64,000 nt of DNA from an uncultured Elusimicrobia bacterium (GCA_964441955.1 CAYTWA010000007.1:71555-135554); one strand, 5' to 3'. Shown: positions 2,701 through 62,814, counted from the stretch's first letter. Notes: generated by a model from the sequence alone, not told the origin. Program-made: numbers and translations.

Positions 2701-4499
2701 TTCTTTTTCGCTCGACAGCGCCCCGTGTAGGGCGTGCCTCCTTGATTCGAGAGCTGCGGTGTCAATGGGAACGCCAATCTATTTTCTGCCTTAGCGTCAT
2801 TTTTGAAAAAGAAAACAGCAACGCTTTGGATTTGGCGGAATGGTTAGAGCGGTACCGCCCCTTGTCCCCACTCCTGCAGCGCAATGCACTCCAATCCGCT
2901 CAGTCGTATGGGTTTTTGAAGTTAAAAGAAACAACCCCAGCCGCCCTAAAGGAATGGCTGGGGCTTGCGACGTCTCTTTATCGCTGGGTTCTCGTGTCCG
3001 CCCCTTCCGAGAACTCAGAAAGTTTCGTGACGCTTCTCGATGCCGCAGACCTCCTGGTCACGGTCACCGTTTCGGGCGGACGGCCAGAAGACGATAGCCG
3101 CCTTTTACGGGATTGTCTCGAACGAGAGCGCTTCCCGTTGGCTTTCCATCAATGGGTTATCAATCGAGAGCCAAGAAGCTCAAAGCCATCGCCGATCCAT
3201 CCATTGAGCATTTTGCCGGAAGATCCCTTGCTAGGCATTCGCTGGCGAGAAGCGGTTCGCGGCCTGGCTGAAACCTTCAAACAAAAGCCCGCACTCTTTA
3301 AACCGCAAACGCCCCTTTCGCAAAAAGAGGAAACATCTCGGCAAGTGCTGGAGGATCTCAAAGCCCGAATACAGCCTCAGCTAGTTCAAGCCATGGAGCA
3401 ATCCCCCACTCAAGGAACCGAAAAAGTCCAAGCCGTATTGGCCGCGGCGTTAGTTGATGAAAGCCGTTTGCCGGTTGACCGCCAGCAGCGTGAAGAAGCG
3501 ATGCAACGTGTGCTTGAAGATGTGTTGGGGTTGGGGCCTATAGAGACGTTGCTTAAAGATCCCGAGGTTTCCGAAGTTATGGTTAACGGGCATGGGTGCG
3601 TCTACGTCGAAAAACGCGGAAAGCTGCACCATACGCCAATCCAGCTGGCGTCTGAAGCGCAGCTGCGCACATTGATCGATCGCATTGTGGCGCCGCTGGG
3701 CCGGAGGGTGGATGAATCCATGCCGCTTTGTGATGCGCGCTTAGCCGATGGCTCGCGAGTGAATATCGTATTGCCCCCGTTGGCGCTGGATGGCCCTACG
3801 CTTACCATCCGGAAATTTATGACAAAACGTTTGGCCTTTGATCAATTGGTCGAGTTAGGCTCAATGAGCGCCGCGATGGGAAGATTTTTAAGCGGGGCGG
3901 TGATGTCCCGTAAAAACATTTTGGTGTCGGGGGGGACGGGAAGCGGGAAAACCACGCTGCTCAATGCCCTCTCCTCTGCCATTCCTGACGATGAACGTAT
4001 TGTGACGATTGAAGATGCCGCGGAACTCAGACTTCAAAAACCCCATGTGGTGCGCTTGGAATCCCGTCCGCCTAATGCGGAGGGGCAAGGTGAAATTCCC
4101 ATCCGGCGGTTGGTGATCAATGCGCTCCGTATGCGGCCCGACCGCATTGTGATTGGCGAGTGCCGGGGTGGCGAAGCGCTCGACATGTTGCAGGCCATGA
4201 ACACGGGTCACGATGGGTCGCTGACCACGATTCATGCCAATACACCGCGGGATGCGCTCGGGCGTTTGGAGACCCTCGTGCTCATGGCGGGCATGGACTT
4301 GCCCGTGCGGGTGATCCGTGAACAAATTCGAAGTGCGATTCATCTTATTGTTCAGCAGGCACGTTTGCCTGATGGCTCCAGAAAGGTGACCTCTGTCACC
4401 GAAGTTACGGGGATGGAACAAGAGGTGCTGGTCACACAGGAATTGTTTCGTTTGCGAAACGGCCAGTTTGAAACGACGGGTCTGCGAGCGGCCTCATGA
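2682..4499 (+). CDS. cpaF: Tad pilus ATPase CpaF/TadA with ~200-aa N-terminal extension resembling a degenerate TadZ/CpaE (ParA-like C-terminal half)
   Basis: Walker A '[16 protein letters not shown]' and a T2SSE/VirB11-like core (..[33 protein letters not shown]..). The N-terminal region contains '..[29 protein letters not shown]..'. Confidence 0.85.
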
Positions 4500-46910: not shown

Positions 46911-46926
46911 AGATATGACGCGCGTC
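46911..46926. promoter_or_regulatory. Perfect 16-bp palindrome TATGACGCGCGTCATA, ~38 bp upstream of the yceI-like start
   Basis: Verified. A nearby inverted repeat TTCACCA-gaa-TGGTGAA lies at 46613..46629. Confidence 0.5.
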
Positions 46927-46963
46927 ATAGTGCGCGCATGCGTCTCCTGTTACCCTAAACCCC

Positions 46964-54779: not shown

Positions 54780-56000
54780 ATGTTCATTCCAAAACTGATT
54801 GTTTGTTTTCGTGAAGGCTATTCCTTCAAGCAATGGCTTCAAGACCTTCAAGCGGGGTTTGTGGTGGGGCTGGTGGCATTGCCATTGGCGATGGCCTTTG
54901 CCATTGCCAGCGGCTTGCCGCCGGAACGCGGACTCTATACCGCGATTGTGGCCGGGTTTTTAATTTCAGCGCTCGGGGGAAGCCGTGTGCAAATCGGCGG
55001 CCCCACCGGCGCATTCGTTTCGGTGGTTGCCGGTATCGTCGCGCAGCATGGCTATGAGGGGCTAGCGATCGCCACCTTCATGGGCGGCGTTATCTTAATT
55101 GTGATGGGCTTAAGCCGTTTGGGCACGTGGGTAAAATACATTCCGAACCCAGTCATCACAGGGTTTACCTCGGGTATTGCCGTCGTCATTTTTCGTGGCC
55201 AACTATCCGAAATAATCGGGCGACACCATGCGCCATGGAACCCTTGGGCATTGGCGCTATCCACGAGTACCGCTCTTGGAATATTTCTGTGGCCGAAATC
55301 CTGGAAAAAGTTTCCCGCGCCTGTGGCCGCCCTTTTGGGCATGACCGCGATCGCCGCTTTGGCCCATCTCCCCGTGGAAACCATTCAAAGTCGCTTCGGC
55401 GCCGTTGCGCAAACGCTCCCGGCGCCCTCCTGGCCAGACCTGTCGCTTGCGCACATTGGCCAGCTGCTTCCCGCGGCCATCACCATCGCACTGTTGGGTG
55501 CCATTGAATCCTTATTATCGGCTATGGTGGCCGACCGTATGATGAGTGGACGTCACAAATCTAATCTAGAGTTGGTCTCTCAAGGAATCGCCAACATGGT
55601 CTCCCCGATTTTTGGCGGGATCCCGGCGACCGGCGCCATTGCGCGCACCGCCACCAACATTCAAAATGGCGGGCGAACGCCGGTTGCCGGGATGACGCAC
55701 GCCTTGGTTTTGTTGGGAATCATTGGGGTAGCCGGTGCCTGGGTGGCCTACATTCCCATGGCGGTCCTCAGCGGAATATTGATTGTCGTGTGCTTCCATA
55801 TGTTTGATGGGCGAAGGTTCCGCTCGCATCTTAAAGACCCTGTGCATGAGCGCGTGGTGCTGCTGGCGACATTCCTTTTAACCGTGACGGTTAACTTGAC
55901 GGTCGCCGTAAGCGCAGGCTTAGCATTGGCGGCCGTTTTTGAGGTGATTAAGCGACGAGGTTCTCCGGCTTGCCCGCCAAAAACACCTGGATGTTGCTGA
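54780..56000 (+). CDS. SulP-family anion transporter membrane domain lacking a C-terminal STAS domain
   Basis: SulP TM-core similarity. The ORF ends at 406 aa and overlaps a convergent gene. Confidence 0.7.
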   Translation: MFIPKLIVCFREGYSFKQWLQDLQAGFVVGLVALPLAMAFAIASGLPPERGLYTAIVAGFLISALGGSRVQIGGPTGAFVSVVAGIVAQHGYEGLAIATFMGGVILIVMGLSRLGTWVKYIPNPVITGFTSGIAVVIFRGQLSEIIGRHHAPWNPWALALSTSTALGIFLWPKSWKKFPAPVAALLGMTAIAALAHLPVETIQSRFGAVAQTLPAPSWPDLSLAHIGQLLPAAITIALLGAIESLLSAMVADRMMSGRHKSNLELVSQGIANMVSPIFGGIPATGAIARTATNIQNGGRTPVAGMTHALVLLGIIGVAGAWVAYIPMAVLSGILIVVCFHMFDGRRFRSHLKDPVHERVVLLATFLLTVTVNLTVAVSAGLALAAVFEVIKRRGSPACPPKTPGCC

Positions 56001-56952
56001 CGGTCGTATCCAAGATGCGCTGCAAGGCTTCTTTGGAATCGAAGGCGATGTGGGGCGTGATAATGACGTTGTCGCGGTTTAGGAGGATATGGTTTTGAAG
56101 CAGCGTTTTCATTTGGTCTCCGGAGAAATCCTTCGCCAGAATTTGGCGTTCTTCCTTAATTAGGTCTTCGCCTTCCAATACGTCCAGCCCGGCGCCCGCC
56201 AAAATTCCCTGATCCAGCGCCAAAGCCAGCGCTTCAGTCTCGACTAAGCCGCCCCGTGCGGTGTTGATCAAAAGCGCGCCCTTCTTCAATTTGTTGATAT
56301 TGCCTTTGTTGATTAAGTGATGGGTGTGCTTGTTATAGGGGGCATGGAGGCTGATAATGTCGGCCCTGGCGAGCAGTTGATCGAGGGACACATAGGCAAA
56401 TCCCAACGTGTCGGCCAGAAACTCGCTTTTTTTTGGATCAAAAGCCACAACGTTCATGCCAAACCCTTTGGCGATGCGAATGGCATGAATTCCAATGTGT
56501 CCCGTTCCCACGATCCCAATGGTTTTGCCTTTCAGATCAAATCCTTGAAGACCTTTAAACGAGAAATTTCCGCGAATCGTCCGAAGATAGCCTTCGTGCG
56601 TTTTGCGGGAAAGGGCCAAAATCAATGCAAAGGTATGCTCCGCCACAGTATTTTCACCGTAGAAGGGCACATTGGCTACGGCGATGCGCCGCTTTTTACA
56701 AGCGGCAAGATCAATGTGGTCGTACCCAGTCGACCGTGTGGCAATCAATTTGAGCCGCGGCATTTGACGCAGTGTTTGAGCCGTGACACGAGAATAGATG
56801 AAAACGGACAAGACCTCCAACGACCGCAAGGCCGGCCCTTTCACATCCGAGGGCTTATCTTCAAAGAAATGCAGGGCGTGGCGTGAGAGCCCGCATTTCT
56901 TCAAATAGGCGGTTTCGTCAGGGGCGGATTCGAAAAAAGCGATAGAGGCCAT
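55948..56952 (-). CDS. D-isomer-specific 2-hydroxyacid dehydrogenase (D-lactate dehydrogenase-like)
   Basis: NAD-binding 'GIVGTGHIGIHAIRIAKGFGMNV', catalytic-region similarity and '..ITPHIAF'. Confidence 0.8.
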   Translation of the reverse strand: MASIAFFESAPDETAYLKKCGLSRHALHFFEDKPSDVKGPALRSLEVLSVFIYSRVTAQTLRQMPRLKLIATRSTGYDHIDLAACKKRRIAVANVPFYGENTVAEHTFALILALSRKTHEGYLRTIRGNFSFKGLQGFDLKGKTIGIVGTGHIGIHAIRIAKGFGMNVVAFDPKKSEFLADTLGFAYVSLDQLLARADIISLHAPYNKHTHHLINKGNINKLKKGALLINTARGGLVETEALALALDQGILAGAGLDVLEGEDLIKEERQILAKDFSGDQMKTLLQNHILLNRDNVIITPHIAFDSKEALQRILDTTVSNIQVFLAGKPENLVA

Positions 56953-56966
56953 GAGGGGCTCCTATC

Positions 56967-57787
56967 TTATGAATTTTTGGGTGCCGGCTTGAGGGGAGGG
57001 GCCGAGACGCTGCTTTTGAAAACGATGGTTTTGTTCTTTCCCGCCGCCTTGGCGTTGTACAAGGCTTGGTCGGAAGCATTCAAGAAACTGTCCTTATCGA
57101 AAATGCCCGCGGCCGTGTCCGGATAGGTGGCCAAGCCAATACTCAGTGTTACTTTGGCGGACATTTGTTGAAAGGTAAATAGCGTCGATTCCACAGCTTT
57201 TCGAATCCGTTCGCCAATCACCTCCGCCACGTCCGCTTCGGCATGCGGCATCAACACCATGAATTCTTCACCGCCATAACGACCCACGATGTCGATGCGC
57301 CGCACTTGGTCGCGAATGATTTGCGCGATTTGGGCGAGCACATGGTCGCCAAAGGGATGGCCGTGGGTGTCGTTAACGGTTTTAAAGTTGTCGATATCCA
57401 GCATGAGACAACTTAAAGGGGTTTTGTAGCGTTCCACACGTTCGACTTCCTGTGCGAGCATTTCTTGAATATGGCGGTGGTTGTAGACGCCGGTCAATCC
57501 GTCGGTAATGGCTAGGAGATTTAGCGTGGAAACGGTCCCTTGCGCTTTTTCGTTTTCGTCTTTTAAGACATCATTGTTGCGTCCCAAAAAAAAGCCGAAC
57601 AAAGCAAAGGCCGTCACTGTGCCAAGCGTCATATACAAATAAAACCCGCCCACACTGGCCCACTCGCTTTGAAACCATGCCCAAAGCCCCGTATGGTACG
57701 TGGCCACAAATCGCCAAACCAAAGCGCCTGCGGGCGCCCCTAGACCTAAAACAGCCCCTAACAAGGCAAATCGTTCTTCATTGCGCA
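56967..57787 (-). CDS. Membrane-anchored GGDEF diguanylate cyclase
   Basis: 'RYGGEEF' active-site motif and N-terminal TM helices. GAGGTG SD precedes the chosen start; the track start at 57851 is an alternative. Confidence 0.8.
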
Positions 57788-57901
57788 TGAAGCGCCACCT
57801 CTTACTATTAAGATACCGCGATAGTGCAGCCTTGTTTATGACGGCGGTCATACGCGTATTTTTTGATGGATGAGGATGGAAAGCCGGTTGCGGCGAAGTC
57901 G

Positions 57902-58582
57902 TTAGCAGCGCATCAAAGCCACTTCTTTTTGAAGCGCATCGAGGTTCTTAAGCGTGATGGCCCCACGGATAGACGAGACCCAGCCTTTTTTAGTGAAGGA
58001 GGAGAGAGTCCGAATGGCGGTTTCCACGGTCGTTCCCGAAAGTTCACCCACTTCGCGCTTGGTCATCGGTATCTTGGCTCCGTGTTGTTTGTACAAGCGA
58101 AGCAAAGTCATGGCGATGCGTTTTTCGACCGGCTCTTGCCCCTGGCAGCTAAGGTCGCGTACGTTGTTTAGCCGTTCGCTGCACAGGGAACAAACCCCTT
58201 TCATCATGGCGGGGGAATGGTTGTAAGCCTGCAGGAAGGCTTGGTCGGCAATTTGAATGACCGTGGTGGGGGTCGCTGCCACGGCCGTGCATGGGTAGCT
58301 TCGGCTGTTACCCCCCATACGGCAAAGCGTACCGAAAAGTTCCTTAGGTCCCAGGCTTTCGATAGCAAACGAGTGGCCAGTCGATGTGAATTTAAAGATT
58401 TGAATTCGACCGTCCTGCAAAACCCAGACGCTATCCGCCGCGTCCCCTTCCGCATAAAGGGTTTCCCCCTTTTTATAAGAGCGCTGTCGGGCGCCTTTTT
58501 CCAGGCGAGCTAATTCGTCCGCGGGAAGGGACCGGAATGGGTCGGCTTGGGAGAGGAACGTATGGATAGAGGAGATCCCCAT
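57902..58582 (-). CDS. Crp/Fnr-family transcriptional regulator
   Basis: cNMP-binding-like N-terminal domain and C-terminal HTH '..REVGELSGTTVETAIRTLSSF..'. Confidence 0.75.
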   Translation of the reverse strand: MGISSIHTFLSQADPFRSLPADELARLEKGARQRSYKKGETLYAEGDAADSVWVLQDGRIQIFKFTSTGHSFAIESLGPKELFGTLCRMGGNSRSYPCTAVAATPTTVIQIADQAFLQAYNHSPAMMKGVCSLCSERLNNVRDLSCQGQEPVEKRIAMTLLRLYKQHGAKIPMTKREVGELSGTTVETAIRTLSSFTKKGWVSSIRGAITLKNLDALQKEVALMRC

Positions 58583-58602
58583 GGGAGTGGGGACATCTTA
58601 TC

Positions 58603-59067
58603 TCACCCGCGTTTGCGCGCCAAGCGGGAAAAACCCTCCTGGCCGCGATGGAACTCCGTGAGGTAGGGGCCGAAGGTCTTACCGATAGCGCCATGCAGCT
58701 GACGTTTAATCAGCAGCCAGGCCGAGGTGTCGGCATCCAAACAAAAATCGTTGAACAAATGCGCCTCGATGTCGGTGTAAAAACCAACGACGCCCTTCTT
58801 CAATTTAAACTGACGTGCGCCGTCGTGTTCGCACGTGCGGCGTTCGTGGACCCATTTGCGAAAATGAGTCCGCAAGGTTTTGGAAATGTCCGATGGCTTG
58901 ACGGGGGCCACCCCGACGGCCCGGTACTGCGCCAAGAGGCGGGCCACCCGCCCGCCTAATTCCTTCAAAATATCCTGGACGTTTTCCCCTGGCGGTAAGC
59001 GAAATTGAAGCGTTTGCACCCGCATAAGGTAGCGGGGAATTTCACAAGAGACTATGACGGCCCTCAT
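58603..59067 (-). CDS. Hypothetical protein, translationally coupled to the upstream phosphoesterase gene
   Basis: ORF overlapping the stop of 59064..61337 by 4 nt. No recognisable motif. Confidence 0.3.
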   Translation of the reverse strand: MRAVIVSCEIPRYLMRVQTLQFRLPPGENVQDILKELGGRVARLLAQYRAVGVAPVKPSDISKTLRTHFRKWVHERRTCEHDGARQFKLKKGVVGFYTDIEAHLFNDFCLDADTSAWLLIKRQLHGAIGKTFGPYLTEFHRGQEGFSRLARKRG

Positions 59068-61337
59068 AGAAGCGTTTTCTGAAATGCCACATCCACGACT
59101 ACAGGTAAATGGTCTGAGGCAATCTTTTCAAGCTCCGTATCCGGAATATCTACTCCGGTTACGGTTAAATCTTCCGAAACGAAAACGTGGTCGATGCATC
59201 CTACCGGAAAGCGGCCAAACCAGGTTTTCTTCGAAGGATATCCGGCGTGCCGCAGCTGGGCGTCGTGCAGGCGTTTTTGGAAAAGGCGCCAGGTGGGCGA
59301 CCCTGGCCATGCGTTCATGTCTCCTAGAACGATGACCGGGTAGCGGCAGTCGGGGTGGCCCACCCAGTCCGTGCCCATTAACGCTTCGGCTTGCCGCCGC
59401 GATTGGGGCGCCCAAATGCTTAAGTGTGTGTTGACGATTTGCACCTCTCGGCCGTGGAGATGGACAGTGGCCCAAAGTGCTCCACGCCGCTCGGAATCAC
59501 TGAAAGTGGGTTCACCGGGCAGGCGGCCTTGTCGCACCAAACGCATCGGATGACGGCTTAAAATCGCATCGCCGAATTGCTCGTGCTCCTCCTGAACAGC
59601 GGGAAAAAAGAATTGGTGCATGCCTAAAAGATGAGCCAGTGTGCCGGCTTGGTCCGTCTGGCCGGATCTTTTCCGGCCGACGTCTAGTTCTTGAAGCGCC
59701 ACGACGTCGGGGTGGTGTGTTGCGATCACGCGCGCCACGCGCTCGATCGAAAGTCGGCCATCCATGCCGCGGCAGCCATGCACGTTATACGTCATCACCC
59801 GAAAGTGTCCAGGAGCTCGCATGCGGACGACCCGCGTGGGGGCTTGTTCCGTATCTTTCCCTAAAATGTGAAGCGCGGCCTGACGCAAATCCCAAGGTCT
59901 TAGAAATGCTCGGTGTCCCGAGGGGAGGGCTGTGTCGGATGGAAGCAGCGCAAACGCTTGCGTTTCATGTGAACCGGGACCCCCATGAGATCCGTTTACG
60001 GCTTCCCACGTCACGGATTTTTTTCCCGGTTGCCATCCGAGGAGAACCAAGTCCCCAGCATCGGGGTGGTGGGCGAGCGACACCAAATCGCCCGCGAGTT
60101 CGCCATGGAACGGATGGTTTTGGCCAAGCAGGCGATCCGCTTGACCCGGAAGACCAAGCTGGCCTTCTTGCGTCCATGCGTGGGCCAAGCCAGGATGCCC
60201 GGCGCTCAAAATACAAGGAATCGGTCTTTCGGCGATCAGCTGCGAAGCCAACGCAGACCGTTCAGCGGCCGTTGGGCGAGATGCCAGGTAGATATGGCCC
60301 ACCGGCCCCATGGTGGCCGTTGCGGCAACCCTCAGGTGCTGCTTCGAGGCGGCGCGACTGGCCGTGACGGCGAGCGATTCACCGCTTAAGTCTCGGTAGG
60401 CGATGGCCTCTTCCTGCCCATGGTCGGAATACACCCAGACGTCATAGAGACGATGGGAGGAGCGGTGGGCGGCTTTCCAAATGTCTTGCACCACGCGGTC
60501 GATGCCTTTAAGCGCCCAGGCGGCGAATGCTGATGAAGGCCCGCGGCGGTGTGCGTATTCGTCATAGCCCACCAGATTGAGATGAATCACCGGCAGGCCC
60601 CGGACAATGTCGATGATCGCCGCGGCGGCAATAAATTCACGCAAGAGTCCGCAAACAGTCAAACGTGAAACAATAAATCCAAGCTCTTTTGCGATGTTTT
60701 GGCCTTTCAGAATGCCGGAAATCGCCATCGTTACGGCCAATGTGGATTCCATGATGAAATAAAGGAGTCCGCGAGGGGAAAGACCTACGCGTAGCAACAG
60801 AAGAACCGTGGCAAAGAGTCGCCTCGCCTGTAGGCCGTGCCCCCATCCTACGGACGCCATGCAGAAATGGGCTTCTTTGGCGCCCCCGGTAAAAATGTCC
60901 GAATAAGCAGACCCCCCTTCTAAAAGCGGAAGGCCTTGCTGCGCCAGTTTTTTTTCTAAACGTGCCGCCGTGTCCGGTTCAAAAAAATTCACCAGGCGAC
61001 TCAGGCCGCGGTCGAAATACTGGAAGGCCGGCACAGCGCCGCGCACACCGTAAAAAAGTTCACCCTGAATGGCTGGTGTCGATGCTGGCAAGCCGGTGTA
61101 AAGGGGATGTAGCGCGTAGCGCTCGCCGCGGATCAGCCGGCGGATGAACGGAAGCCGCCCTTCCGCCACGGCGCTTTCCAAACAGCGCAGCGAAAGGCCA
61201 TCGATTTGAATCATGACCAAACCCCGGCCCAGGTCCTTCGGCGATGCAGAAGGAAGCCGCCACACCCAGGCAATCCACTGAGCGGGGTTCAAAAACCGGC
61301 CCAACCGCCGCACAACGGTTTCTATCCAGCCAATCAT
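59064..61337 (-). CDS. Two-domain phosphoesterase: N-terminal alkaline-phosphatase-superfamily (NPP/type I phosphodiesterase-like, with embedded hydrophobic segments) + C-terminal endonuclease/exonuclease/phosphatase (EEP) domain
   Basis: 'MIQIDGLSL..YTGLPASTPAIQGELFYG..LVGYDEYAHRRG..VYSDHGQ' are AP-superfamily metal-site motifs. 'MTYNVHGCRG..VVALQELD..IVNTHLS..GDMNA..IDHVFVS' are EEP motifs. Confidence 0.6.
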   Translation of the reverse strand: MIGWIETVVRRLGRFLNPAQWIAWVWRLPSASPKDLGRGLVMIQIDGLSLRCLESAVAEGRLPFIRRLIRGERYALHPLYTGLPASTPAIQGELFYGVRGAVPAFQYFDRGLSRLVNFFEPDTAARLEKKLAQQGLPLLEGGSAYSDIFTGGAKEAHFCMASVGWGHGLQARRLFATVLLLLRVGLSPRGLLYFIMESTLAVTMAISGILKGQNIAKELGFIVSRLTVCGLLREFIAAAAIIDIVRGLPVIHLNLVGYDEYAHRRGPSSAFAAWALKGIDRVVQDIWKAAHRSSHRLYDVWVYSDHGQEEAIAYRDLSGESLAVTASRAASKQHLRVAATATMGPVGHIYLASRPTAAERSALASQLIAERPIPCILSAGHPGLAHAWTQEGQLGLPGQADRLLGQNHPFHGELAGDLVSLAHHPDAGDLVLLGWQPGKKSVTWEAVNGSHGGPGSHETQAFALLPSDTALPSGHRAFLRPWDLRQAALHILGKDTEQAPTRVVRMRAPGHFRVMTYNVHGCRGMDGRLSIERVARVIATHHPDVVALQELDVGRKRSGQTDQAGTLAHLLGMHQFFFPAVQEEHEQFGDAILSRHPMRLVRQGRLPGEPTFSDSERRGALWATVHLHGREVQIVNTHLSIWAPQSRRQAEALMGTDWVGHPDCRYPVIVLGDMNAWPGSPTWRLFQKRLHDAQLRHAGYPSKKTWFGRFPVGCIDHVFVSEDLTVTGVDIPDTELEKIASDHLPVVVDVAFQKTLL

Positions 61338-61441
61338 CCGAAGACATCCTATCGACCCTTCCCGTTGCCGACTATGACGGTCGTCATGGACCTGCCCGGA
61401 CGAAAGGTTTACGCTAGAGGCGAAACGGACGGGCAGGGGGT

Positions 61442-62398
61442 GTGGTCATGGTCAACAAACTTCCGTCGGCAGTGCGTAGCCTTCATCTTAATACAGCCCA
61501 GTGTTTGGACGATGTCGCCAATAAGGCGGCTTTGCTGGCTTGGGACGGGCTGCTCCGAGAAAACCATTCCACCGCGTATGACCCCCACTGTTTCCCTACG
61601 CTGGCGAAAACCATCCATCGTATCCTTCAGCGCCGCATCGACACCTGTCCCCTTTGTGAAGACCCCCGACAATGCGACCCCTGGGCGCGGACGGGTGGTG
61701 TTCCGCTTCATTCCACAGTCTCTACGGTGTCGTGCATGGGGCATCGCGCGCGAGTTGAAAAGGAGACGAGCGATTCCTTGGAACAGCTTCGCAGGGAACT
61801 TGAAAACGAAGCCACCTTGTTTTTAACTGGGGGCCATCAGCCTCGCGCCACACCATCTCCGTTGTTGACGGAGATGGTGCATCGTGCGATGGAAAACACC
61901 GTGTCGTATCTCAAAGAAAACGTTGCCTGTTCCCGCTGCGAAAACGTGCGTAACGTCCGAATCCAAAAAGAAATCAAGGCGTCGAAGGGGGGAGCCATGC
62001 TGAAAGCAGAGCTAGGGCAGGAATTGGTTCTCGAAGTGCTTAACGATATCGGCGTGTTGGCGGAAATCACCCAGGTGGTCTCGGACAAAGGCATCAGCCT
62101 TCGTGCGGTGTCTAGCTGGGTGAAAGGGGCCGACGGCCTCATTCACCTGGTGACAGATGATAACCTGAGAGCAGGGGATGCGCTGCGCAAGAAAAAATTC
62201 AAAGTCCGAGAGGAAAAGGTCATCCTAGCCGAGCTGCCGAACAAGCCCGGTATGCTTAAACGGTTGACGGAACGACTCGAGGCCGAGCAAATCGACATCC
62301 ACCACCTCTATGCTACCGCTGATGGAATCGACAAATGTCTGGTTGTTTTTTCCTCATCCGACAACGACCGGGCGATGGTGGAGATCAACCGAGCATAA
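61442..62398 (+). CDS. Tandem ACT-domain protein with Cys-containing N-terminal domain
   Basis: C-terminal '..ELVLEVLNDIGVLAEITQVVSDKGISLR..' and '..VILAELPNKPGMLKRLTERLEAEQIDIHHL' are ACT-like. N-terminal 'CPLCEDPRQC' and 'CSRCENV'. Confidence 0.5.
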   Translation: MVMVNKLPSAVRSLHLNTAQCLDDVANKAALLAWDGLLRENHSTAYDPHCFPTLAKTIHRILQRRIDTCPLCEDPRQCDPWARTGGVPLHSTVSTVSCMGHRARVEKETSDSLEQLRRELENEATLFLTGGHQPRATPSPLLTEMVHRAMENTVSYLKENVACSRCENVRNVRIQKEIKASKGGAMLKAELGQELVLEVLNDIGVLAEITQVVSDKGISLRAVSSWVKGADGLIHLVTDDNLRAGDALRKKKFKVREEKVILAELPNKPGMLKRLTERLEAEQIDIHHLYATADGIDKCLVVFSSSDNDRAMVEINRA

Positions 62399-62715: not shown

Positions 62716-62814
62716 GGTGCTCTCCGCTGAGGTAGCGTAGCGTATTGTTTTTTGAATTGGATATGACCGGCATCATAGTGCTTTACCCTCAGAGGCCCTA
62801 CATTATTCCCGCAC

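What the first reader, a model, noticed from the sequence alone, without database searches (positions are those of the whole stretch)
55948..61337. Minus-strand operon: NPP+EEP two-domain phosphoesterase - hypothetical - Crp/Fnr - GGDEF - D-2-hydroxyacid dehydrogenase
The 757-aa first gene fuses an alkaline-phosphatase-superfamily phosphodiesterase/pyrophosphatase core, interrupted by hydrophobic segments, to a C-terminal EEP nuclease/phosphatase domain. I do not recognise this pairing as a standard architecture. It is translationally coupled (ATGA) to an unknown 154-aa protein. These are followed at short spacing by a cNMP-type regulator, a membrane diguanylate cyclase and a dehydrogenase. 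The arrangement hints at a (cyclic) nucleotide or phospholipid-headgroup turnover pathway wired to c-di-GMP signalling.
Basis: partly seen in the sequence, partly recalled or inferred. Interest (0 to 1): 0.55.

Follow-up and report, generated by a model that had tools for sequence, protein, structure and literature searches.

The report
Widespread uncharacterised two-domain phosphoesterase beside signalling genes
The unusual-looking two-domain phosphate-ester-cleaving enzyme is real, but it belongs to a large uncharacterised family found in hundreds of bacterial species that normally sits with sugar- and lipid-handling genes, so its position next to c-di-GMP signalling genes here is a local juxtaposition, probably under shared regulation, and not a conserved pathway.

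Summary
All five minus-strand genes exist as described: a 757-aa NPP-type alkaline-phosphatase-superfamily + EEP fusion, a 154-aa unknown, a Crp/Fnr regulator, a membrane GGDEF cyclase and a D-2-hydroxyacid dehydrogenase.

The fusion is not a frameshift artefact and is not rare. At least 1,783 protein clusters and at least 567 reference species encode it at full length, with both active sites invariant, and no studied member was found.

Its conserved neighbours are different genes. A GT4 glycosyltransferase lies directly upstream in 75 of 80 loci. A 750-aa protein with no Pfam match, predicted to have a GH94/GH15-like fold, is present in 62 of 80. A DedA/VTT membrane protein is present in 45 of 80. 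None of these is in the window. Crp, GGDEF, dehydrogenase and ORF154 genes are essentially absent near other family members (2, 6, 0 and 0 of 80).

Separately, Crp–GGDEF–dehydrogenase with an ORF154 homologue is syntenic in another organism that has no fusion gene next to it. The block is therefore two modules placed side by side.

What links them is a lineage-specific FNR-geometry palindrome, ATGAC-N4-GTCAT, upstream of the fusion, ORF154 and GGDEF genes. It also lies upstream of their homologues in related genomes. This suggests one regulon of several transcription units.

The substrate is unknown. I favour a membrane-proximal phospholipid or glycoconjugate head group.

The parts
59064..61337 (-). 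757-aa two-domain phosphoesterase: NPP-type AP-superfamily domain plus EEP domain. It is a member of a large uncharacterised family.
   Evidence: ORF. Pfam PF01663 + PF03372. At least 1,783 homologues, of which the top 120 are all full length with both domains. AF2 model pLDDT 84.8, pTM 0.86.
59868..61226 (-). N-terminal NPP-like alkaline-phosphatase-superfamily domain (about residues 38-490). Invariant putative metal ligands are D46, D259, H263, D305, H306 and H451, with T87 as the putative nucleophile.
   Evidence: Invariant columns in 46 sequences. The IDGL, YDEQAH and SDHG motifs align to the equivalent motifs of Xanthomonas NPP 2gsn/7mw8, E about 4e-4. Pfam is above cutoff.
60600..60860 (-). 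Four-helix hydrophobic/amphipathic insertion (residues 160-246) inside the AP domain. It is probably a membrane-dipping hairpin or a lid.
   Evidence: AF2 helices 160-171, 174-186, 188-210 and 215-246. Family-mean hydropathy reaches 2.1 for residues 175-212. R189, E197, R225, R233, D243 and R246 are invariant.
59103..59801 (-). C-terminal EEP (endonuclease/exonuclease/phosphatase) domain, residues 513-745. N518, E550, D673, N675, D742 and H743 are invariant.
   Evidence: Pfam PF03372, model positions 1-225 of 225, E=1e-24. Foldseek hits: 4ruw, Tdp2, nocturnin and CNOT6L, E=1e-16 to 1e-13. Invariant columns.
58603..59067 (-). ORF154, a small basic protein from a very rare family. The likely true start is ATG 59025 or GTG 59019.
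   Evidence: Only itself was found among 5.8e9 proteins. Two relatives were found among 1.8e9 representatives. The pairwise alignment with P0122 gives E=3e-13 and begins at ORF154 residue 20.
57902..58582 (-). Crp/Fnr-family regulator without the FNR N-terminal cysteine extension. Its recognition helix, TVETAIR, aligns with FNR TVETISR.
   Evidence: Pfam cNMP_binding + HTH_Crp_2. BLASTP against E. coli FNR gives E=4e-15, with the alignment starting at FNR residue 31. It is 41% identical to the syntenic gene in L088.
56967..57851 (-). Membrane-anchored diguanylate cyclase with two N-terminal hydrophobic helices, a GGEEF motif and an RxxD I-site. The likely start is M22 at 57788.
   Evidence: Pfam GGDEF E=1e-45. 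Hydropathy. It is 51% identical to the L088 orthologue, which starts at window residue 27. L090 has a 273-aa gene call.
55948..56952 (-). NAD-dependent D-2-hydroxyacid dehydrogenase family protein of unassigned specificity.
   Evidence: Pfam 2-Hacid_dh_C E=7e-55. All NCBIfam hits are below their cutoffs. It is 70% identical to the syntenic gene in L088.
61374..61387 (.). Palindromic box ATGACGGTCGTCAT (ATGAC-N4-GTCAT), 37-50 nt upstream of the fusion start codon. It lies in the 104-bp divergent intergenic region.
   Evidence: Exact match. The window has 3 exact matches against 0.05 expected. The closest relative L001 has a 1-mismatch copy 68-81 nt upstream of its fusion gene.
59054..59067 (.). 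Box copy with one mismatch. It overlaps the fusion stop codon and lies 29-42 nt upstream of the homology-supported ORF154 start.
   Evidence: Exact copies lie 47-60 nt and 46-59 nt upstream of the ORF154 homologues in L088 and L092.
57838..57851 (.). Exact box copy, 50-63 nt upstream of the probable GGDEF start (57788).
   Evidence: The same site is in L090 at 2999-3012, ahead of the gene call at 3062.

Best explanation
Shown:
- The 757-aa gene encodes a bona fide member of a large, phylogenetically broad and so far uncharacterised family of two-domain phosphoesterases.
- The N-terminal half is an NPP-type alkaline-phosphatase-superfamily domain. It has a complete two-metal site and an invariant Thr, and it is interrupted by a hydrophobic helical insertion.
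- The C-terminal half is a complete EEP domain.
- In most genomes the gene is the last gene of a four-gene module: DedA/VTT membrane protein, a 750-aa GH94/GH15-like glycoside hydrolase or phosphorylase, a GT4 glycosyltransferase, then the fusion. The fusion's start overlaps the GT4 stop.
- In the window's lineage the gene is separated from that module. It lies next to an independently conserved signalling cassette made of the ORF154-family gene, a Crp/Fnr regulator, a membrane diguanylate cyclase and a D-2-hydroxyacid dehydrogenase.
- The same FNR-geometry palindrome, ATGAC-N4-GTCAT, precedes the fusion, ORF154 and GGDEF genes here. It also precedes their homologues in related genomes.

Inferred:
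- The five genes are not one biochemical pathway. They are two modules, probably forming at least three transcription units, co-regulated as part of a lineage-specific regulon. The adjacent Crp/Fnr protein is the most likely binder of the box.
- The enzyme sits at the cytoplasmic face of the inner membrane, held there by its hydrophobic hairpin.
- It performs two consecutive phosphoester cleavages on a phospholipid or glycoconjugate head group. One domain cuts the diester and the other removes the remaining phosphate.
- In the canonical module this would feed or edit the product of the glycolipid-synthase-like GT4.
For: Family and architecture:
- 46 aligned sequences keep D46, T87, D259, H263, D305, H306 and H451, and also N518, E550, D673, N675, D742 and H743.
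- confident AF2 model. EEP fold confirmed. NPP metal motifs aligned to 2gsn.
- at least 567 species encode the family.

Canonical partners:
- GT4 in 75/80 loci, the 750-aa protein in 62/80, VTT in 45/80.
- the GT4's best models are monoglucosyl-DAG synthase (1.8e-38) and GlcNAc-phosphatidylglycerol synthase (9e-36), both below cutoff.
- the 750-aa partner folds like GH94 phosphorylases and GH15 glucoamylase.
- a PP-binding/AMP-binding/PlsC-acyltransferase protein adjoins the module in 7 loci.
- residues 175-212 are hydrophobic across the whole family.

Juxtaposition:
- none of the partner genes is in the window.
- Crp 2/80, GGDEF 6/80, dehydrogenase 0/80, ORF154 0/80.
- the closest relative has RtcB and archease instead.
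- L088 carries the ORF154 homologue and Crp-GGDEF-dehydrogenase in the same order (41%, 51% and 70% identity) with no fusion gene next to P0122.
- L092 carries an ORF154 homologue with neither module nearby.

Regulon:
- 3 exact boxes in 64 kb against 0.05 expected, compared with 1 in 1.15 Mb of distant loci.
- boxes lie upstream of the P0122 and P0244 genes, a Usp gene, the L001 fusion homologue and an ACT gene.
- the FNR residues E209 and R213 are conserved in the window regulator.
Against: - No biochemical data exist for any member, so the substrate class is inferred from neighbours that this window lacks.
- The closest solved EEP structures act on nucleotides or nucleic acids (Tdp2, nocturnin, CNOT6L, PDE12) and not on lipids.
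- The hydrophobic insertion carries invariant charged residues and could be a lid and not a membrane anchor. No dedicated topology predictor was available.
- The window shows only 64 kb of a 141.8-kb contig, so GT4 and its partners may lie elsewhere in the genome.
- The window clade may have changed function after losing the partners.
- Binding of the box by this particular Crp/Fnr protein is untested. L001 has boxes but no Crp gene within 10 kb.
- Tight spacing on one strand is still compatible with read-through co-transcription of all five genes.
Confidence: 0.45

Rival explanations
1. The five genes form one dedicated operon in which the fusion enzyme degrades (cyclic) nucleotides, and that turnover is functionally tied to the Crp-type cNMP sensor and the diguanylate cyclase.
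For: - The genes are on one strand with tight spacing.
- PF01663-family enzymes can be cyclic-dinucleotide phosphodiesterases (AtaC, PMC7132281, found).
- The EEP domain's nearest solved structures act on nucleotides or nucleic acids.
- A shared upstream box links the fusion gene with the signalling genes.
Against: - The linkage is not conserved: GGDEF 6/80, Crp 2/80, dehydrogenase 0/80 and ORF154 0/80.
- The closest relative lacks these genes.
- The signalling trio is conserved in L088 with no fusion gene next to P0122.
- The family's dominant partners are carbohydrate and membrane genes.
- No c-di-GMP riboswitch or other Rfam family is present.
Confidence: 0.1
2. The enzyme acts on soluble sugar phosphates or nucleotide sugars, not on lipids. 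It would work with the GT4 and the phosphorylase-like partner in making or recycling a soluble glycoside such as a compatible solute or an oligosaccharide, for example by removing the phosphate from a glycosyl-phosphate intermediate.
For: - The 750-aa partner resembles disaccharide phosphorylases and glucoamylase.
- One locus carries a TreT-like trehalose synthase next to the module.
- EEP relatives include a mannose-6-phosphatase, 4c1r/3mpr.
- NPPs are known to hydrolyse nucleotide sugars (general knowledge of the family).
Against: - The hydrophobic insertion is conserved across the family.
- A DedA/VTT membrane partner is present in 45/80 loci.
- The GT4's best matches are lipid glycosyltransferases.
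- An Aas-like acyltransferase is adjacent in 7 loci.
- Known compatible-solute phosphatases are small HAD or histidine phosphatases.
Confidence: 0.2
3. The enzyme is an RNA or DNA end-processing enzyme. It would remove 3'-phosphate, 2',3'-cyclic phosphate or adducts, and work with the RtcB ligase.
For: - RtcB and archease lie directly downstream on the same strand in the closest relative L001/L002.
- RtcB is adjacent in L007/L062 and L035.
- The nearest EEP structures are Tdp2 and CCR4-type nucleases.
Against: - RtcB is present in only 2 of 80 surveyed loci plus L001 and is absent from the window.
- The dominant partners are GT4, the GH-like protein and DedA.
- The hydrophobic insertion and the lack of any nucleic-acid-binding domain argue against it.
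Confidence: 0.1

Closest known systems
Bacterial nucleotide pyrophosphatase/phosphodiesterase (Xanthomonas NPP, PDB 2gsn) and the wider PF01663 family. By general knowledge this family includes the c-di-AMP phosphodiesterase AtaC and the eukaryotic GPI ethanolamine-phosphate transferases.
   Same: The Pfam score is above cutoff. The IDGL, (Y/V)DExxH and SDHG metal-ligand motifs align. There is an invariant Thr in a PSxTxP-like context (its equivalence to the NPP nucleophile is inferred).
   Different: Only about 65 residues align significantly. An insertion of about 90 residues of hydrophobic helices lies between the nucleophile and the second metal motif. The domain is fused to an EEP domain. 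There is no signal peptide. The substrate is unknown.
EEP superfamily enzymes (PF03372): 4ruw (uncharacterised), Tdp2, nocturnin, CCR4/CNOT6L and the Bacteroides mannose-6-phosphatase 4c1r.
   Same: The Pfam match covers the full model. The fold is confirmed by Foldseek (probability 1.0). The catalytic Asn, Glu, Asp and His set is invariant.
   Different: Identity is 16-25%. No known EEP enzyme carries an N-terminal NPP domain. The fold hits do not discriminate specificity, because their E-values are all within about two logs.
PlcP-Agt lipid-remodelling pair: a phospholipase C plus a GT4 glycolipid synthase, used under phosphate limitation in marine and soil bacteria. This comparison rests on general knowledge, and related papers appeared.
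   Same: In the canonical module a phosphoesterase gene is directly coupled to a GT4 whose best matches are diacylglycerol or phospholipid glycosyltransferases. The logic would be analogous: cleave a phospholipid head group, then glycosylate.
   Different: PlcP is a calcineurin-type metallophosphoesterase, not AP or EEP. The module here also carries a GH94/GH15-like protein and a DedA protein. The window itself has no GT4. No link to phosphate starvation was tested.
FNR/CRP-type regulators and their TGA-N6-TCA boxes (E. coli FNR box TTGAT-N4-ATCAA).
   Same: The domain architecture is the same. The recognition-helix residues equivalent to FNR E209 and R213 are conserved. The box has the same 5-N4-5 geometry and TGA/TCA core, and it lies 29-81 nt upstream of start codons.
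   Different: The half-site is ATGAC, not TTGAT. The regulator has no N-terminal Cys cluster, so it is not an Fe-S oxygen sensor. Its ligand is unknown. Binding has not been shown.

Membership tests
Alkaline-phosphatase superfamily, NPP branch (PF01663) | Profile match above the curated cutoff | tested here: met
   34.8 bits against a cutoff of 23, E=1.8e-8, but the match is partial (model positions 163-258 of 342). PF01663 is precomputed for all of the top 120 homologues.
Alkaline-phosphatase superfamily, NPP branch (PF01663) | Two-metal site ligands (Asp; Asp+His; Asp+His; His) | tested here: met
   D46, D259/H263, D305/H306 and H451 are invariant in 46 sequences. Three of the motifs align to the corresponding motifs of Xanthomonas NPP.
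Alkaline-phosphatase superfamily, NPP branch (PF01663) | Thr/Ser nucleophile after the first beta-strand/helix | tested here: inconclusive
   T87 is invariant in the motif P-S-x-T-P, but that segment did not align to an NPP structure. The equivalence is inferred.
Alkaline-phosphatase superfamily, NPP branch (PF01663) | AP alpha/beta core fold | not testable with these tools
EEP superfamily (PF03372) | Full-length profile match, catalytic residues and fold | tested here: met
   E=1e-24 over model positions 1-225 of 225. N518, E550, D673, N675, D742 and H743 are invariant. Foldseek probability is 1.0 to 4ruw, Tdp2 and nocturnin.
Cyclic-dinucleotide phosphodiesterase coupled to a cyclase | Conserved genomic linkage with cyclase or effector genes | tested here: not met
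   GGDEF lies within about 8 kb in 6 of 80 loci and Crp in 2 of 80, at scattered positions. Both are absent in the closest relative.
Cyclic-dinucleotide phosphodiesterase coupled to a cyclase | Hydrolytic activity on c-di-GMP or c-di-AMP, or specific homology to AtaC | not tested
   No AtaC sequence or assay was available. EAL and HD-GYP domains are absent.
Single five-gene operon | Same strand, short gaps, no internal signals | tested here: inconclusive
   The genes are on one strand with gaps of -4 to 50 nt. Consensus scans are at chance level. Conserved boxes precede three of the genes.
Single five-gene operon | Gene order conserved in relatives | tested here: not met
   The fusion is never linked to the other four genes elsewhere. 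Only Crp-GGDEF-dehydrogenase, plus ORF154 at a distance, is conserved.
Canonical VTT / GH-like / GT4 / AP+EEP module | GT4 immediately upstream, with the 750-aa partner and VTT | tested here: not met
   tblastn of all partners against the 64-kb window found nothing at E<=1e-3. The rest of the genome was not available.
CRP/FNR transcription factors | cNMP-binding fold plus C-terminal HTH with recognition-helix Glu and Arg | tested here: met
   Pfam hits at 1.1e-18 and 1.6e-14. TVETAIR aligns with FNR TVETISR.
FNR proper (oxygen-sensing) | N-terminal Cys cluster for the [4Fe-4S] centre | tested here: not met
   The alignment starts at FNR residue 31, and the window protein has no Cys in its first 80 residues.
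Active diguanylate cyclase (GGDEF) | GG(D/E)EF active site and RxxD inhibitory site | tested here: met
   Pfam GGDEF covers model positions 1-161 of 161, E=1e-45.

The most novel reading that the evidence does not exclude
The AP+EEP fusion, the GH94/GH15-like 750-aa protein that has no Pfam match, the GT4 and the DedA protein together define a widespread, undescribed pathway. It would build or remodel a phosphate-linked glycolipid or glycoconjugate at the inner membrane. In the window's lineage the phosphoesterase would have been detached from that pathway and recruited into a Crp/Fnr-controlled stress regulon that also includes a diguanylate cyclase, Usp and ACT genes.
Probability: 0.3. Interest if true: 0.65.

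Novelty: new variant of a known kind. Interest (0 to 1): 0.4.

Why it matters
Both catalytic domains belong to classical phosphoesterase superfamilies, so the chemistry is not exotic. What stands out is the family itself. It is present in at least 567 species across many phyla, including Pseudomonadota, Desulfobacterota, Nitrospirota, Nitrospinota, Omnitrophota, Elusimicrobiota, Sumerlaeota and Planctomycetota. It is embedded in a tightly conserved four-gene module, and two of that module's large proteins carry no functional annotation at all. That makes it a concrete and tractable target for finding a new membrane glycolipid or glycoconjugate pathway, because cultured carriers exist.

For this window the practical result is a correction. 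The attractive link to c-di-GMP reflects gene neighbourhood, and probably shared regulation, in one lineage. It should not be used to annotate the enzyme's substrate.

The ATGAC-N4-GTCAT box is a usable handle for defining a regulon in a poorly studied lineage related to Elusimicrobia.

Tried and rejected
1. Frameshift-joined genes: rejected. There is a single ORF, and homologues of about 800 aa cover 94-100% of the query.

3. Literature: searches for the domain pair by name and by accession, for module keywords, for lipid remodelling and for GlcNAc-phosphatidylglycerol found no paper on this family. The only relevant lead was AtaC.

4. ORF154 as a spurious ORF: rejected. P0122 aligns over nearly the full length, and the upstream box is conserved in three genomes.

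5. The N-terminal 185 residues of the divergent ORF 61442-62398 as a paralogue of ORF154/P0122 (shared CPLC...DPW and YL-EN-AC-C motifs): only marginal, with E=0.02-0.05. Left open.

6. The truncated gene upstream of P0122 in L088 as a fusion homologue: rejected.

7. A riboswitch or other RNA in the block: none found.

8. The palindrome as an RNA hairpin hiding start codons: considered unlikely. The stem would be only 4-5 bp with a 4-nt loop, and most copies lie upstream of start codons, not on them.

9. The source organism could not be named. The cluster look-up gave no accessions, and the exact protein is not in the contig index. The lineage is inferred only from the best hit, to an Elusimicrobia MAG.

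Full report
**1. What is in the sequence**

Pfam assigns them as follows:
- 757-aa protein: PF01663 (type I phosphodiesterase/nucleotide pyrophosphatase), residues 251-354, E=1.8e-8, above cutoff; and PF03372 (endonuclease/exonuclease/phosphatase, EEP), residues 515-743 over the whole model, E=1e-24.
- 154-aa protein: nothing.
- 226-aa protein: cNMP_binding + HTH_Crp_2.
- 294-aa protein: GGDEF, E=1e-45.
- 334-aa protein: both D-2-hydroxyacid dehydrogenase domains.

NCBIfam gave no equivalog-level name for any of them. Gaps between the genes are -4, 20, 50 and 14 nt. Composition is unremarkable.

**2. The fusion is genuine, intact and common**

A search of the 5.8-billion-protein collection returned at least 1,783 homologues. 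Only 8,000 candidates were scored, so this is a lower bound. The top 120 are all 757-844 aa, cover 94-100% of the query and carry both Pfam domains. They come from Elusimicrobia, Methylobacter and other Gammaproteobacteria, Deltaproteobacteria, Nitrospinae and Nitrospirota. Their only name is 'endonuclease/exonuclease/phosphatase family protein'. The closest relative, P0002, is 64% identical and comes from an Elusimicrobia MAG.

In an alignment of 46 members these residues are invariant:
- D46 (in the motif IDGL), T87 (PSxTP), D259 and H263 (YDExxH), D305 and H306 (SDHG) and H451;
- N518, E550, D673, N675, D742 and H743 in the EEP half.

A profile of the N-terminal half alone aligns its IDGL, YDEQAH and SDHG motifs to the corresponding motifs of Xanthomonas NPP (2gsn, 7mw8; E about 4e-4). 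Both active sites therefore look functional.

AlphaFold with this alignment gives a confident model (pLDDT 84.8, pTM 0.86). Foldseek confirms the EEP fold, with 4ruw, Tdp2, nocturnin and CNOT6L at E=1e-16 to 1e-13.

The 'hydrophobic segments' are a four-helix insertion at residues 160-246. Across the family, residues 175-212 are strongly hydrophobic, with mean Kyte-Doolittle values up to 2.1. They contain invariant R189 and E197. Residues 219-245 are amphipathic, with invariant R225, R233, D243 and R246. There is no signal peptide. I read the insertion as a membrane-dipping hairpin or a lid, and this is not proven.

No solved structure or paper describes a member.

**3. What the family normally sits with**

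Four distant members share one arrangement: DedA/VTT protein, a protein of about 750 aa with no Pfam hit, a GT4 glycosyltransferase whose stop overlaps the fusion's start, then the fusion.

A tblastn census of 80 reference-genome loci gave these counts:

| Gene | Loci (of 80) |
|---|---|
| GT4 directly upstream | 75 |
| 750-aa protein | 62 |
| VTT | 45 |

Many of the gaps are caused by contig ends.

- The GT4's best NCBIfam models, both below cutoff, are alpha-monoglucosyl-diacylglycerol synthase (1.8e-38) and GlcNAc-phosphatidylglycerol synthase (9e-36).
- The 750-aa partner is 'hypothetical' in every source. Its AlphaFold model (pLDDT 73.9) matches GH94 cellobionic-acid and cellobiose phosphorylases (7e-15) and bacterial GH15 glucoamylase (3e-13).
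- An unbiased clustering of all flanking ORFs found one more recurrent neighbour. It is a PP-binding/AMP-binding/PlsC-acyltransferase protein, which is the domain set of acyl-ACP synthetase/lysophospholipid acyltransferases (Aas type). It occurs in 7 loci and also in L007.

The family's ancestral setting is therefore carbohydrate and membrane chemistry.

**4. What the window's neighbours really are**

- None of GT4, the 750-aa protein, VTT, RtcB or archease is present anywhere in the 64-kb window.
- In the 80 loci, ORF154 and the dehydrogenase never occur. Crp occurs in 2 and GGDEF in 6, at scattered positions.
- The closest relative is followed by RtcB and archease.
- ORF154 finds only itself by word-indexed search. 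Two weak relatives appear in the index-free search. P0122 aligns with it over nearly the full length (pairwise E=3e-13), so it is a real protein from a rare family.
- The P0122 contig (L088) carries, further downstream, Crp, GGDEF and 2-hydroxyacid dehydrogenase genes in the same order as the window, at 41%, 51% and 70% identity. The gene fragment upstream of P0122 is not a fusion homologue.
- A third genome (L092) has an ORF154 homologue next to Usp and Ada genes, with neither the fusion nor the trio within the available flanks of about 1.9 kb upstream and 10 kb downstream.

The window's block is thus a juxtaposition of an 'orphaned' family member and an independently conserved signalling cassette.

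**5. A shared cis-element**

While checking the gene junctions I found the near-palindrome ATGAC-N4-GTCAT (extended form ATGACGnnCGTCATAGT). Its copies in the window are:

| Position | Match | Location |
|---|---|---|
| 61374-61387 | exact | 37-50 nt upstream of the fusion ATG |
| 59054-59067 | 1 mismatch | on the fusion stop codon |
| 57838-57851 | exact | at the first in-frame ATG of the GGDEF ORF |
| 46915-46928 | exact | 36-49 nt upstream of ORF 46964 |
| 62763-62776 | 1 mismatch | 39-52 nt upstream of a desaturase-like gene |

That is three exact copies in 64 kb against 0.05 expected. The 1.15 Mb of distant loci hold one.

Homology indicates that ORF154 starts at ATG 59025 or GTG 59019 and that the GGDEF gene starts at M22, 57788. 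With those starts, the two in-block copies lie in intergenic DNA, 29-42 and 50-63 nt upstream of their genes.

The box recurs where it should if it is functional:
- exact copies 47-60 nt upstream of P0122 (L088) and 46-59 nt upstream of P0244 (L092);
- a 1-mismatch copy 68-81 nt upstream of the fusion homologue in L001, and an exact copy upstream of that genome's ACT gene;
- a copy upstream of a Usp gene in L088.

Its TGA-N6-TCA core and 5-N4-5 geometry are those of FNR/CRP boxes (general knowledge). The window regulator aligns with E. coli FNR (E=4e-15). The recognition helix TVETAIR aligns with FNR TVETISR, so the E209 and R213 equivalents are kept. The alignment begins at FNR residue 31, so the N-terminal Cys cluster is missing.

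I infer a lineage-specific regulon, most simply controlled by this Crp/Fnr protein, that includes the fusion gene. I also infer that the 'operon' is probably at least three transcription units. Consensus promoter and terminator scans were uninformative, and no Rfam family is present.

**6. Mechanism**

Shown:
- two intact phosphoesterase active sites in one chain;
- a conserved hydrophobic insertion;
- a family context of GT4, a GH-like protein, DedA and sometimes an acyltransferase;
- local co-occurrence with the box.

Inferred:
- The enzyme is held at the cytoplasmic face of the membrane.
- It carries out two successive phosphoester cleavages on a phospholipid or glycoconjugate head group, first the diester and then the monoester.
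- In the canonical module this supplies or edits the GT4's lipid-linked product.
- In this lineage expression is tied to a stress or signalling regulon.

I put about 0.85 on the 'two modules plus shared box' architecture. I put about 0.35-0.4 on the lipid or glycoconjugate substrate class. Overall confidence is 0.45.

Rivals:
- soluble sugar-phosphate or nucleotide-sugar metabolism, 0.2;
- RNA or DNA end processing linked to RtcB, 0.1.

The nucleotide-type rivals draw some support from the EEP domain's nearest structures, which are Tdp2, nocturnin, CNOT6L and PDE12. They also have the AtaC precedent for PF01663 enzymes (PMC7132281).

**7. Verdict**

The gene is a new, locally rearranged member of a large uncharacterised two-domain phosphoesterase family. 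The link to c-di-GMP is neighbourhood and probable co-regulation in one lineage, not a conserved pathway. The family and its four-gene module deserve experimental attention more than this particular locus does.

Noticed in passing
window 46915-46928, 57838-57851, 59054-59067, 61374-61387, 62763-62776; L001 9920-9933, 14940-14953, 17710-17723, 18426-18439; L088 496-509, 2031-2044; L092 1836-1849, 2886-2899: A lineage-specific palindrome, ATGAC-N4-GTCAT, lies 29-120 nt upstream of diverse genes. These include the fusion, ORF154-family, GGDEF, ACT, Usp, OmpA-like and desaturase-like genes and a secreted 209-aa protein. It is about 50-100 times enriched relative to distant loci. It probably marks a Crp/Fnr-type regulon.
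   Followed up: yes
L004 2412-4718 and its homologues in 62 of 80 loci (P0124-P0243): A very large family of proteins of about 750 aa (at least 4,720 clusters) has no Pfam or NCBIfam model and is named only 'hypothetical'. Its predicted fold is a beta-sandwich plus (alpha/alpha)6 barrel like GH94 phosphorylases and GH15 glucoamylase. The N-terminal 100 residues or so are highly conserved but modelled with low confidence.
   Followed up: partly
L001 12430-14326; L007 9085-11012; L035 864-2613: RtcB RNA ligase and archease lie next to the fusion gene in three separate genomes. In the closest relative of the window protein they are on the same strand with a 42-nt gap. This is more than expected by chance but far rarer than the GT4 linkage.
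   Followed up: partly
window 61442-62398 (+): A 318-aa ORF diverges from the fusion gene. Its C-terminal 133 aa or so form an ACT-domain protein like the 133-aa ACT gene in L001. Its N-terminal 185 aa or so have no family, but they carry CPLC...DPW and YL-EN-AC-C motifs reminiscent of the C-terminus of P0122 and P0123 (E=0.02-0.05). It may be two genes or a fusion.
   Followed up: partly
window 58603-59067; L088 556-1092; L092 1895-2455: The ORF154 family is extremely rare, with three clusters found among 1.8 billion representatives. In the other two genomes it sits next to universal stress protein (Usp) genes, always behind the palindromic box.
   Followed up: partly
window 54780-56000 (+) against 55948-56952 (-): The SulP-family sulfate permease gene converges on the dehydrogenase gene, and their 3' ends overlap by 53 nt.
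   Followed up: no
L059 and L066 (contigs labelled 'Halobacteria archaeon'): Two MAG contigs labelled as haloarchaeal carry the complete bacterial-type module. Their proteins are 64-70% identical to the Methylobacter proteins (L004) used as queries, so the contigs are probably mis-binned.
   Followed up: no
L017 10403-13255 and six other loci; L007 1-2455: A protein of 909-951 aa combining PP-binding, AMP-binding and PlsC-acyltransferase domains (acyl-ACP synthetase/lysophospholipid acyltransferase type) directly adjoins the module in a subset of genomes. This hints at lipid re-acylation.
   Followed up: partly
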